Part shown: piece after piece, positions 3,250 to 53,442 of the stretch
How positions within the stretch are numbered: position 1 is the stretch's first letter
How the letters are laid out: each line of letters starts with the position of its first letter
From: Octopus vulgaris
Taxonomy: Eukaryota
Reading direction: 5' to 3'
NCBI GenBank assembly: GCA_951406725.2
Contig: OX597816.1
Location: 175,212,001-175,276,000, forward strand
DNA length: 64,000 nucleotides
The notes under the pieces: generated by a model
What the model saw: only the letters and a program-made list of their open reading frames with translations
Databases searched by the model: none
What the model was told of the DNA's origin: nothing
Translations under genes and position numbers: made by a program

Positions 3250-3925
3250 GGCACAGGCGTGACTGTGTGGTAAGAAGCTTGCTTTCAAACCACATGGTTC
3301 TGGGTTCATTCCTACTGCATGGCACCTTGGGCAAGTGTCGTCTACAATAGCCTTAGGCTGACCAAAGCTTTGTGAGTGGATTTGATAGACAGAAACTGAA
3401 AGAAGCTTGTCATATATATATATATATATATATATATATATATATATAATTACAAATTGGGGGTTGTGAGTGCAACCCACCATGGGATAACATGTATCCA
3501 ATATACTGCTAGTAAAGTACCCAACAAAGTTAATAAGAATTGCGATGCAGTTAATTCATTCACTGTATTATATGGGCAAAGGTAAAATGTTTTACCACAA
3601 ATTAATAATACAAAATAAGAAAATGGAGAAATACATCTTAATCAATAATCAACTACCAGAAAATACCCAATCACATAATTTATTAACCCACTACATATGA
3701 ACATTAAGGTCAAACATAATAATATAGAACAAAACAATGTACATCAATGAGTAATATGTACATTGTTTTGTTCTATATTGTTATGTTTGACCTTAATGTT
3801 CATATGTAGTGGGTTAATAAATTATGTGATTGGGTATTATCTGGTAGTTGATTATTGATTAAGATGTATTTCGAGTCATTCAACTAAAAATCCAAGGCAG
3901 TCTAATGACTGAAACAAGTAAAAGG
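3250..3925 (+). mobile_element. tRNA-derived SINE (family A) split by a fold-back insertion in its TA tract
   Basis: Head GGCGTGACTGTGTGGTAAGAAGCTTGC...GGGTTCATTCC at ~3255. The family tail ATGACTGAAACAAGTAAAAG resumes only at ~3905. Confidence 0.75.
3628..3872. repeat. Near-perfect hairpin, 117 bp arms, 11 nt loop
   Basis: 3628-3744 is the reverse complement of 3756-3872, with about 2 mismatches. Confidence 0.95.
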
Positions 3926-4674
3926 AAAAAAGATAAAGATAAATGTTGATAATTTAAGCAATATCGTTCTTCCCTTCTTTTCATATTCAAGTATGCCATC
4001 ATAATATTTCAAATGGCTTGTAGTATATATCTTTGAATTAACTACAGTCCTTTCATAATCCCTGTTTTAATGTTGATTTTCTAATGCTAGAATGGTTTTG
4101 ACATGGCTTTTTGTTTCTATTTCAACTATGAAAACCAATGTTCTCAGATCAGACCTCACCTCTTCTGTTCATGGGTAAAGTCCTCTGTTGGCTGAAAGCA
4201 TATTTTCAATTCATGTTTTACATAATTTCATCCTAATGGTTTTGAAACTGAAAAAAAAACAAAACCTTTCAAATTGTTATGACATCCTGCACCAGGGACA
4301 AAGGACCTATCATATGTAATGCATGCACTGCATGCCTTACTATTTTTCCAGGATAACTAATTTTTGTGTCATATAACTTATTGATAATTTTCACTATTCT
4401 CATTGTACTTGAATTTTTTTCTTTCATTTGTAAGTATGAATTGTAAACAACTGATATTATTTAATAAGTATAAGTAAAGAAAATGGCTGTTTGCTTAGTG
4501 AGAAAAGAAGGAAAAGCCGTAAATAATTGCTTTGCTGCTCCTTCTTCAAAAAGAAGAGGGAGTGTGAAAGAAAAAAACAAATGAGTGGTTAAGAGAGAGA
4601 CAAACAGAGAAAGGCAACTTTTTTTTTAAGAGAGTTCTATTATTCTTTTTGAGAAGGGAGTATTAAAAAGATAG

Positions 4675-5060
4675 GATGGAAGCACTCCGTCGGTTACGAC
4701 GATGAGGGTTCCGGTTGATCCAAATCAACAGAACAGCCTGCCCGTGAGATTAACGTGTAAGTGGCTGAGCACTCCACAGACACGTGCACCCTTAACGTAG
4801 TTCTCGGGGATATTCAGCGTGACACAGAGAGTGACAAGGCCGGCCCTTTGAAATACAGGTACAACAGAAACAGGAAGTAAGAGTGAGAGAAAGTTGTGGT
4901 GAAAGAGTACAGCAGGGATCACCACCATCCCCTGCTGGAGCCTCGTGGAGCTTTTAGGTGTTTTCGCTCAATAAACATTCACAACGCCCGGTCTGGGAAT
5001 CGAAACCGTGATCCTATGACCGCGAGTCCGCTGCCCTAACCACTGGGCCATTGCGCCTCC
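4675..5060 (-). mobile_element. tRNA-derived SINE (family B)
   Basis: Minus strand begins GGAGGCGCAATGGCCCAGTGGTTAGGGCAGCGGACTCGCGG...GGTTTCGATTCC (A/B boxes). Homologous copies at ~48550-49165, 49640-50000 and 34395-34620. Confidence 0.85.
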
Positions 5061-5359
5061 TGAAAAGATAGACAAAACAAATGAGTGAGTAGTCAAGAGA
5101 GAGAAAGGCAGAGGAAAGCAAATGTTTTTACTGCTTGTTTTCTTGTTATGTTAAACCAGCAGACACACTGTCCACATATTTTCTCCTGAAGCACTGATGT
5201 TTTTACTGCCCTGTGTAACAGAGATCAAAGGTTTGCCTATTCAAATGACTTAAACCTTTCCTCTTGGTTGGGCAGATTCAGATTTAGTCAATTTGCAAGT
5301 TTGCTTTATTGCTGATTCTGGTTAATTCCATATGATTATTTGGTTCTGAAGAGTATACT

Positions 5360-5770
5360 CTTTTACTCTTTTTACTTGTTTCAGTCATTAAACTGCAGTC
5401 ATGCTGGGACACTTCCTTGAAGAATTTTTAATTGAATGAATTGACCCCCAGTATTTTTTTTTTTTTAAAGTCTGGCACTTATTTTCTCAATCTCTCATGC
5501 TGAACCACTAACTAAAGGGAACATAAACAAACCAAGACCAGTTGTCAAGTGGTGGGCGAAGACAGACAAACATGCACACACAACTATACACACACACATA
5601 CATGTATATATAATGGGCTTCTTTCAGTTTCTGCCTGCCAATTCCACTCACAAGGCTTTGGTTGGCCCAAGGCTGTAGTTGAAGACACTTGCTTAAGGTG
5701 CTCCACATTGATACTGAACCTAGAACCATGCAATTGGGAAGCAAACTTCTTACCACCCAGCCATGCCTGC
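5360..5770 (-). mobile_element. SINE family A, diverged copy
   Basis: Reverse complement of the 9350-9750 copy: CTTGTTTCAGTCAT tail, CAAATTCCACTCACAAGGCTTTGG core. Confidence 0.8.
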
Positions 5771-51369: not shown

Positions 51370-51558
51370 ATATACATATATACACTCACACACACACACA
51401 TTTTTCTATGTAAAATAGAAAATTGTAAAGGGTTAGTTAAAGGAAGAAAAGCATGAAGCCCCATGACTTTTTAGCAAGGCTTCCAAGACTGGTTGGGGAA
51501 AGAAAATGATGGGAGCACAAAAAAGATATGAAGAGAAAAAAGCAAGAAAGACACTTAC

Positions 51559-51688
51559 CTGTGTTTATGTAAACAGAATGAGACAATAGGAGGGTGAAGG
51601 GAAATACTGAGTAATGAACTACAGGTTAAACCTCTCTTAAACCAATGGTCAGCTTCTGGTTTGAACACTGCGGTAGTTATCAGGACAA
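51559..51688 (-). CDS. Flavin-reductase-like gene, exon 3
   Basis: VVLITTAVF...KRGLTCSSLLSISLHPPIVSFCL, the GxTxSSxxSxSxxPP FMN-binding signature. Confidence 0.93.
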
Positions 51689-53277
51689 CTGAGAAACAAA
51701 AAAAGGTGATCCTTTTTTTTTTGACATAGTACAAAGTTAATAATAATAATAATAATAATAATAACAATAATAATAATGATTTCAAATTTTGGCACATGGC
51801 CAACAAGTTTGGGGGAGGGGGAGGTCAATTACATGGACCCCAGTACTCAACTGGTACTTATTTTATCAACCCTAAAAAACAAAAAAGATGAAAGGCAAAG
51901 TTGACCTCGGGGGAACTCAGAATGCAAAGCTGGACAAAATGCAACTAAGCATTTGGCCTGGCATGCTAATGATTCAGCCACCTTCAATAATGGTTTTAAA
52001 TTTTGACAGAGGGCAACAGTTTTTGAGAGGAGTTTGGTTCGGTCCTATGGTTTGTTAGCTCCTGTCAAACCAAATAACCCATGCCAGCATAGAAATAGAC
52101 ATTAAACTGTGATGATGATGATTTCTACCAAACTCTCGGTTCTTTCTGAGAGTATTACTGTTTTTGTCGTTGTTACAGATCTATAATTAAAGACAGTGCA
52201 ATTGTGACTAATCCATCCAATTTTTTCATAAATTTATGACTACAAGGTCCAAGTCATTTAATTTTTCAAGATCATCCTTTAACATCCTCATTGTCCTTTA
52301 ATATCCATTTTTCATGCTGGCATGGGTTGGAAGGTTTGACCAGAACTAGCAAGCTTAAGAGCTGCACCGGGTTCCAATCTGATTTGGCTTGGTTTTTACA
52401 GCTGGATCTCCTGCCCCATGCCAACCACTTTACAGTGTGTGCTGGGTGCTTTTAATGTGGCATCCACATGAGCGCTTATACACAGAGCCAGCACAAATGC
52501 CTTTTACACTGCATCAGCACAGGGCCCTTGCAGGCTGATCCCCTTCATCAGGGAGAGTGGCCTTGACACTTCTGCTGTGGGGGATGGGTCTTCTTGAATA
52601 CAGCAAGGCACCAGATATCTTGAGTCTTTGTCATCGCCTTCAAATGGTAAAAGTGCAATTTGAGGGAGATTTAGCTGTTATTTCTAGCAAATCGAGTTAC
52701 CACAGAGAGGATCCTTTACTGGTTCCAGAGTATACAGTTTAACAGAGAGTTTGGTTTTCTTTTGATCTTGATGGTTGACACTGTTGAGTAGTAGTCCTAA
52801 CCAGGTAATTAATTAGTCTTAACTTTAGTACTTCTCTTCACTAACACACGAAAATGACAGGATAGGCTAAGTCAACCTTGACAAGATGTGTACTTAGATT
52901 GTTAAGTGACTAAACAATTTAATAATTATCAAGCTGTAAACCAGTAGGATTTGTCACATATGCAATGCAGGTGAGTTGACAAACTTCAATTACCTGAGAT
53001 CATCCTAGCAATCAGGAGTCAAAATCACCTCAAGTAGAAGTTTAAAATCTTTAAAAAAAAACAACAAACAAGGGAGATAATTCTAATATGATCATTTGTA
53101 TGTTATTAAACAGTTTGAGAGGATAGAGTAGACATAAACTGAAAGAATCCATCATATATATATATATATATATATATACATATAAACATAAATAATATTA
53201 GGGTAATAAGAATTATAGAAATTCTTATTACCAGTGGCCTAGCACAAAAAAAATAGTCAATAGACTAAATATTATCC

Positions 53278-53398
53278 ACATAAAAATATTGTGTACATTA
53301 AAACACATGAAGAGGCTTCCAAATAAGAAATCCTTGGCACAAGGCTTTCCTATTTGGAAGCCTCTTGATGTGTCTTAATGTACACAATATTTTTATGT
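53278..53398. repeat. Hairpin, ~59 bp arms, 3 nt loop
   Basis: 53278-53336 pairs with 53340-53398; embedded between TA tracts. Confidence 0.92.
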
Positions 53399-53442
53399 AT
53401 ATATATATGTATATATATACGTATATATATATGTATATATAT

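What the first reader, a model, noticed from the sequence alone, without database searches (positions are those of the whole stretch)
3445..53400. Recurring miniature fold-back insertions at TA tracts share a terminal leader with the large PLE: candidate hairpin-generating retroelement system
Seen: four hairpins of unrelated arm sequence (3628-3872, 27083-27292, 50075-50302, 53278-53398) each lie at an AT/TA tract. Each is preceded by a small stem-loop plus a similar motif: GGTAATAAATT..AATTTATTACC-AGTGGTTAGCATG (50032-50071), GGTAATAAGAAT..ATTCTTATTACC-AGTGGCCTAGCAC (53202-53245), GATAACTTCTT..AAGAAATTATC-AGGCAGATAGCGTG (~26976-27027) and, more weakly, GGGTTG..CAACCC-ACCATGGGATAACATG (~3461-3494). 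The large PLE's outer end reads TATTGCCAGTTTAGCC (18762-18777), resembling TATTACCAGTGGTTAGC. Inference: these are short 3' ends of several PLE families, each copied back on itself during integration at TA repeats, by the same mechanism as the 5.8 kb palindrome. This would be a genome-wide source of long intronic dsRNA.
Basis: partly seen in the sequence, partly recalled or inferred. Interest (0 to 1): 0.75.

Follow-up and report, generated by a model that had tools for sequence, protein, structure and literature searches.

The report
Twin-primed Penelope and retrozyme insertions
The four DNA hairpins are short leftover copies of known kinds of jumping elements (one Penelope-like retrotransposon, three protein-less repeats whose families carry a predicted self-cutting RNA motif), and their ends follow a strict two-start-point rule that suggests each was likely copied from one RNA by priming from both sides of a cut TA repeat, not simply folded back on itself.

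Summary
The hairpins and leaders are where stated. Each belongs to a family of hundreds to thousands of copies with variable apex and a type I hammerhead, so they are not MITEs. One (3445-3872) is the 3' end of a Hydra-clade Penelope-like element (PLE). Three are fragments of 473-496-nt ORF-less tandem units (retrozymes); no driver ORF was found for them. The 'leader' is the known PLE 'tail', read antisense. It is homologous only between the 50-kb and 53-kb families; the match to the large PLE is not significant. Simple fold-back fails: 33 of 33 inverted insertions of the large PLE and 67 of 92 mini junctions (none tail/tail) have one end at a distal and one at a proximal RNA start site, and either arm may reach further 5'. 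The two arms share one template (1/209 discordant sites versus 41% between loci). Best model: both ends of a cut (TA)n prime on one RNA. Two hairpins are intronic; dsRNA is untested. The elements are known kinds; I did not find the two-site rule in print, but this scan noted it earlier on other DNA of this genome.

The parts
3445..3762 (-). E3 distal arm: last ~335 nt of a Hydra-clade PLE 3' UTR, starting at the distal start site beside (TA)n; 3445-3627 is present on this side only
3756..3872 (+). E3 inverted arm; 7-nt overlap at the apex; stops ~20 nt short of the family's proximal site and abuts another repeat (likely a later deletion)
18693..21601 (-). Large PLE, tailed arm; tail 18693-18737 cut by the N gap
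21598..24545 (+). Large PLE, tail-less arm ending at the proximal site; reaches 84 nt further 5' than the tailed arm; holds a 5'-truncated ORF 21600-23861 (RT, CxxxxCxxC linker, GIY-YIG-like domain)
24380..24424 (+). Hammerhead-like core in the large PLE's 3' UTR, seen by eye; it did not pass my descriptor
26958..27251 (-). E27 distal arm: fragment of a 479-nt tandem hammerhead unit; tail 26958-27076; holds only the 3' half of the ribozyme
27250..27298 (+). E27 inverted arm ending at the proximal site in (TA)n
50022..50202 (-). E50 distal arm: fragment of a ~496-nt tandem hammerhead unit; tail hairpin 50032-50058; ~44-nt internal deletion near 50070-50075
50201..50315 (+). E50 inverted arm ending in the proximal zone at (TA)n; right end approximate
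53170..53336 (-). E53 distal arm: fragment of a 473-nt tandem hammerhead unit; tail hairpin 53202-53232; left end blurred by TA
53337..53400 (+). E53 inverted arm ending in the proximal zone at (TA)n
45784..60640 (-). Host gene, flavin-reductase-like (exons 60036-60640, 55457-55543, 51559-51688, 48393-48458, 45784-45864); E50 lies in intron 48459-51558 and E53 in intron 51689-55456
   Evidence: spliced contigs with CT..AC joints in runs X4 and X9; PF01613 E 8e-5, below the curated cut-off

Best explanation
The four hairpins are short two-armed insertions of hammerhead-bearing repeat families (one Penelope-like retrotransposon 3' end, three ORF-less tandem units), likely made when a Penelope-type enzyme cut a (TA)n tract and both DNA ends primed reverse transcription on the same RNA, one at a distal and one at a proximal start site. 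Shown: family membership, variable apex, two start zones per family, one of each per insertion, arms not nested, arms sharing one haplotype, short microhomology at the apex. Inferred: the two cDNAs are joined 3' end to 3' end by microhomology and filled in, so the stretch copied twice becomes the hairpin and the stretch between the start sites becomes the one-sided 'leader' (the PLE tail). Inferred: the ORF-less families borrow a PLE enzyme in trans. The window copies lack a whole ribozyme and are likely dead fragments; any intronic dsRNA would be a by-product.
For: Large PLE: 33 of 33 head-to-head pairs found in 39 stretches have one end at +45..+60 and one at +1..-6; the tailed arm is longer or equal in 18, the tail-less arm in 15. 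Minis, 210 loci with duplicates removed: 92 junctions = 67 distal/proximal, 14 distal/other, 9 proximal/other, 2 proximal/proximal, 0 distal/distal; distal arm longer 30, proximal longer 30, equal 7; in 4 the distal arm stops at or before the proximal site, so there is no inverted repeat. Arms of one insertion disagree at 1/209 shared polymorphic sites versus 2644/6488 between loci (PLE) and at 45/380 versus 43-48% (minis). Apex overlap >=2 nt in 18 of 23 PLE junctions without extra bases; about 15% expected. Hammerhead descriptor: 111 hits in 619 kb, 0 in local shuffles, all four families represented. E3 reaches Hydra-type ORF pieces about 2.7 kb upstream in 6 of 7 extended loci. In vitro a PLE protein cuts and extends both strands and starts at two internal sites that bound the tail (PMC11167929).
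Against: Near-equal arms are in excess (10 of 33 within 250 nt; 4.6 expected; p=0.009), which a fold-back step would also give. 25 of 92 mini junctions are not distal/proximal, and 110 of 271 arms have no partner arm. Mini start sites are 15-25-nt zones, not single bases. No driver ORF was found for E27, E50 or E53. Rfam reported no hammerhead family in 6 loci. PLE pairs were picked from the 150 best of 9775 candidates and minis from the best 30 per search, so young, long copies are favoured. Assembly polishing could reduce arm differences. No biochemistry here.
Confidence: 0.62

Rival explanations
1. Both ends prime, but only one cDNA runs far; it folds back, copies itself, and the copy anneals to a short cDNA primed at the other site.
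For: Gives the same one-tail rule, shared haplotype and apex microhomology; explains the excess of near-equal arms without strand displacement on the RNA.
Against: Needs loops of up to 5.4 kb; the 4 insertions with no overlap are plain end-to-end joins of two cDNAs.
Confidence: 0.25
2. One reading: one cDNA, primed once, folds back and is joined to the far end without a second priming (close to the self-priming reading in PMC3846280).
For: The window copies at 3, 27 and 50 kb are nested and the 53-kb copy has equal arms, so each alone fits.
Against: Predicts a second arm contained in the first with a free outer end. Observed: a fixed proximal end, 15 of 33 and 30 of 67 non-nested, no tail/tail class.
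Confidence: 0.04
3. The two arms are copied from two different RNA molecules.
For: A few minis disagree at half or more of their diagnostic sites (L058 1/2, L060 2/3, L062 2/4, L073 4/6, L095 3/6, L106 3/5).
Against: 1/209 discordance in the PLE while 83% of between-locus arm pairs differ at one or more sites; transcripts from one dominant source per cell, or gene conversion, could hide it.
Confidence: 0.06
4. The hairpins are MITEs, Helitron-type elements or assembly artefacts.
For: Short AT-rich palindromes at TA tracts resemble such elements (recalled); palindromes can arise in long-read assembly (recalled).
Against: Apex and length vary between copies, 5' truncation (2445 versus 199 candidates for the near and far part of E3), hammerheads, tandem units, a PLE ORF link, fixed RNA start sites, and CpG-type differences between arms.
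Confidence: 0.03

Closest known systems
EN+ Penelope-like elements with an inverted 5'-truncated copy and a 30-40-bp tail (Craig et al. 2021, PMC8557442: passages and section 11 read; Arkhipova et al. 2013, PMC3846280: passages read)
   Same: Head-to-head inversions, tail at one end only, partial tandems, (TA)n targets, hammerheads.
   Different: Tails here are 57 nt (large PLE) and about 95-180 nt (minis). The papers call the tail optional and attribute it to endonuclease resolution, and the palindromes to self-priming; the passages read give no count of a one-distal/one-proximal rule, arm nesting or arm haplotypes.
Hydra clade of PLEs (PMC8557442, section 11)
   Same: E3's ORF has DKT, a CxCx5C linker, CxxC and CxH at the EN end, no CCHH, a hammerhead and a (TA)n target.
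   Different: 3' UTR about 2.7 kb, so the element exceeds the usual <3 kb; hammerhead with a 100-nt stem II region; no intact full ORF or tree obtained.
Poseidon of Anolis in vitro (Frangieh et al. 2024, PMC11167929: parts 1-2 of 4 read)
   Same: Two internal start sites bounding the tail, both target strands cut and extended, AT-rich target, predicted dimer.
   Different: They saw no strand difference in start site and no homology to the target, and did not link the two sites to inversions in the parts read. Here each insertion uses one of each site, and the starts lie in AT-rich RNA that merges with the TA flank.
Metazoan non-LTR retrozymes (Cervera and de la Pena 2020, PMC7229834: passages; Li, Clavereau and Pollet 2026, 10.64898/2026.07.22.740005: parts 1-3 of 5)
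   Same: ORF-less tandem units, one type I hammerhead per unit, dispersed, co-occurring with PLEs.
   Different: Units are 473-496 nt (170-400 nt in the 2020 paper, up to 972 in the 2026 one). Those papers propose PLE mobilisation from shared ribozymes, co-occurrence and pLTR homology; here the insertion footprint itself matches the PLE's. Cleavage and circles are not shown here.
L1 twin priming (recalled, not read)
   Same: Two target ends prime on one RNA and give a 5' inversion.
   Different: L1's second site is variable and the two cDNAs barely overlap; here both sites are fixed and overlap is the rule (4 of 67 without overlap).

Membership tests
Hydra-clade PLE (E3) | RT plus C-terminal GIY-YIG ORF in sense upstream of the 3' end | tested here: met
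   ORF pieces 2.7 kb upstream in L151-L156; RVT_1 E 1.2e-5, below cut-off; copies are decayed
Hydra-clade PLE (E3) | DKT motif, CxCx5C linker, CxxC/CxH, no CCHH | tested here: met
   read from translations against the list
Hydra-clade PLE (E3) | Placement in the clade by RT phylogeny | not tested
   no reference set fetched
EN+ PLE (large element) | Single RT + GIY-YIG ORF, partial tandems, inverted copy, tail | tested here: met
   1312-residue open frame, 4589-nt tandem unit, 57-nt tail; linker CxxxxCxxC and C..C..H..H suggest Neptune/Nematis type, no tree built
Non-LTR retrozyme (E27, E50, E53) | Head-to-tail ORF-less units of a few hundred nt | tested here: met
   473, 479 and 496-nt units that wrap round; 25/25 and 26/27 new loci wrap, but the query spanned the junction
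Non-LTR retrozyme (E27, E50, E53) | Type I hammerhead in each unit | tested here: met
   descriptor hits 37, 12 and 2 copies; 0 in shuffles; no Rfam hammerhead hit; none complete in the window copies
Non-LTR retrozyme (E27, E50, E53) | Self-cleavage and circular RNA | not testable with these tools
   only contigs of runs guessed to be RNA
Non-LTR retrozyme (E27, E50, E53) | Identified autonomous partner | tested here: inconclusive
   no linked ORF in 150 loci; one Neptune-type neighbour family shares no end sequence
MITE | Fixed length and apex, terminal inverted repeats reaching both ends | tested here: not met
   apex varies from about 55 to over 900; tail on one side only

The most novel reading that the evidence does not exclude
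PLE integration is an asymmetric double-ended reaction: an enzyme dimer holds one RNA and primes one end of a (TA)n break at the tail end and the other at the tail base. This one rule would account for the PLE tail, the head-to-head inversions and the spread of animal retrozymes, which would be written from a single circle or uniform multimer, and it would seed thousands of intronic hairpins in this genome.
Probability: 0.5. Interest if true: 0.72.

Novelty: new variant of a known kind. Interest (0 to 1): 0.5.

Why it matters
How PLEs make their inverted and tailed insertions, and which enzyme moves animal retrozymes, are both stated as open in the papers read (PMC8557442, PMC7229834, the 2026 preprint). 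A very young PLE family with intact frames and two start sites mapped to the base gives a direct in vitro test. The matching footprint on ORF-less hammerhead repeats is sequence evidence that PLE enzymes move them. The intronic hairpins are candidate dsRNA, but that is unshown.

Tried and rejected
One universal leader shared with the large PLE: not significant. Arms ending preferentially at the ribozyme cut site, suggested by three E53 copies: not significant (within 2 nt: 3/26 p=0.09, 1/33, 0/15, 0/10). Two different RNA templates, suggested by L058: a minority at most. A Neptune-type family beside E53 in L055 and E50 in L272 as driver: L272 is separated by other repeats and 30 family loci share no end sequence with the units. 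A>G editing fixed into PLE copies: none seen, low power (2 versus 1; 4 versus 1). An apparent 40% unit-to-unit mismatch within E53 arms came mostly from sites in the priming zone and an A-run; at four clean sites 25 of 26 agree, and E27 differs at 9/111; this fits a circle or a uniform multimer equally. Rfam scan swamped by TA-repeat microRNA models. Expression: no RNA holder listed; E27-like contigs occur in four runs guessed to be RNA, two with joints going back one unit, which cannot tell circle from tandem or RNA from DNA. Further host exons left of 45784 were not found by motif scan, so E3, E27 and the large PLE are not shown to be intronic. One search returned nothing (bad BLAST setting, rerun); one search stopped before the E3 end tally. 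Supplements of the papers were not opened; those of Craig 2021 (octopus families, hammerheads) and of the preprint may bear on novelty.
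Full report
Observation. The four hairpins and their leader strings are at the stated places. The 5.8-kb palindrome holds an RT and GIY-YIG-like frame. 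The window lies in a 2.8-Gb genome of 227 contigs; earlier scan notes label it octopus, which I did not test.

Families. Genome searches gave 593, 1601, 2445 and 3126 first-look candidates for the 50, 53, 3 and 27-kb elements (E50, E53, E3, E27), of which 40 were scored and 30 fetched each; candidates are not copy numbers. Apex and length vary from copy to copy. E53, E27 and E50 wrap round into head-to-tail units of 473, 479 and about 496 nt with no ORF. E3 does not wrap: candidates fall from 2445 to 199 about 1 kb in, and 6 of 7 extended loci reach PLE frame pieces about 2.7 kb upstream with the DKT, CxCx5C, CxxC and CxH marks of the Hydra clade. The seventh, L157, was 5'-truncated before that point.

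Hammerheads. A type I descriptor found 111 hits in 619 kb of loci and window and none in local shuffles; E27, E3, E53 and E50 gave 37, 33, 12 and 2. They lie on the strand opposite the leader, so the leader is the antisense of the RNA's 3' side. Rfam listed no hammerhead family in six loci. The window copies stop at 315, 277, 211 and 140 of their family coordinates against cut sites at 375, 245, 240 and 234; none has a whole ribozyme.

The leader. It is the segment between two start sites, present at one end only: the PLE tail (PMC8557442 and PMC3846280, passages; PMC11167929). E50 and E53 tails are homologous (p=0.003). E27, E3 and both ends of the large PLE are not significantly like them (p=0.13-0.94), and a model of the E50/E53 tail misses them. 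E27 shares the layout (hairpin, short purine motif, small second hairpin), by eye only.

End rule in the large PLE. A protein search gave 9775 candidates; the 150 scored were 99-100% identical, several in frames of about 1310 residues. I fetched 38 stretches chosen from that list and added the window. In 33 of 39 a head-to-head pair lay inside the stretch; all 33 have one end at +45..+60 and one at +1..-6, nearly all flanked by (TA)n. The tailed arm is longer or equal in 18 and the tail-less arm longer in 15; the window's own palindrome is of the second kind. Arms differ by 0.06% against 0.25% between loci, and at 1 of 209 shared polymorphic sites against 41%. Apex overlaps of 2-8 nt occur in 18 of 23 junctions without extra bases.

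End rule in the minis. Over 210 loci, duplicates removed, 92 head-to-head junctions were found: 67 distal/proximal, 14 distal/other, 9 proximal/other, 2 proximal/proximal, none distal/distal. The distal arm is longer in 30, the proximal in 30, equal in 7; in 4 the distal arm stops at or before the proximal site. Arms disagree at 45 of 380 diagnostic sites against 43-48% between loci (first 150 loci). 110 of 271 arms have no partner. Start sites are zones of 15-25 AT-rich bases.

Mechanism. A single cDNA that folds back can only copy what it holds, so its second arm must lie within the first and may end anywhere. About half of the insertions break the first rule and nearly all end at a fixed second site; both DNA ends must therefore have primed (inference). 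The shared haplotype points to one RNA. I favour two cDNAs joined at their 3' ends by microhomology (0.62). A fold-back of one long cDNA that then meets a short second cDNA gives the same sequence and fits the excess of near-equal arms (10 of 33, 4.6 expected, p=0.009) (0.25). The in vitro result that a PLE protein cuts and extends both strands from two internal sites supports the chemistry. That E27, E50 and E53 use a PLE enzyme is inferred from the identical footprint; no driver was found.

dsRNA. Contigs from two runs of two studies, guessed to be RNA, splice across E50 and E53 as introns of a minus-strand flavin-reductase-like gene. The hairpins are predicted to fold (47-116 arm pairs, longest perfect helices 24-83 bp). 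Whether they form dsRNA, are edited or are diced was not testable.

Novelty. Inverted, tailed PLE insertions at (TA)n, the Hydra clade and animal retrozymes are all described. Nine full-text searches showed no paper stating the one-distal/one-proximal rule, non-nested arms from one template, or a PLE footprint on retrozymes; the library lacks most subscription journals and I opened no supplements. An octopus repeat annotation (PMC13282606, passages) lists PLEs and does not use the words hammerhead or retrozyme.

Verdict. A real feature made of known kinds of element. The value lies in the end rule, which makes PLE inversion and retrozyme mobilisation directly testable. Interest 0.5.

Noticed in passing
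window 45784-60640 (-) and about 61030-61340 (+): A flavin-reductase-like gene lies head to head with an FtsJ-family methyltransferase first exon (PF01728 E 1.7e-16), starts within about 400 bp.
   Followed up: partly
flanks of L003, L021, L043, L048, L055, L056, L058, L087, L095, L104, L105, L120, L128, L157: About a dozen further hammerhead-bearing repeat clusters at TA tracts, several as small palindromes (18 clusters in all); relatives of E53 in L035 and of E27 in L048.
   Followed up: partly
L190:4482-8420: The full 1312-residue frame of the large PLE has long Asn/Ser-rich stretches before the RT, recalling the N-rich inserts of rotifer PLEs; the family looks recently active (about 0.25% between copies).
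   Followed up: no
L152:4550-7700 and L157:2069-2615: Two more Hydra-type PLE families, both with inverted copies.
   Followed up: no
L055:1876-2900, L286-L315: An older Neptune-type PLE family (1237 candidates) whose copies also seem to end at two sites about 35-40 nt apart, by eye.
   Followed up: partly
   Followed up: no
window 14415-15623 (-) and 46796-47194 (+): A LINE-type RT fragment (RVT_1 E 1.7e-27) and a Tc1-like transposase fragment.
   Followed up: no
window 18593-18692 and 24546-26940: An N gap cuts the PLE tail; a long AT-rich microsatellite array separates the PLE from E27.
   Followed up: no
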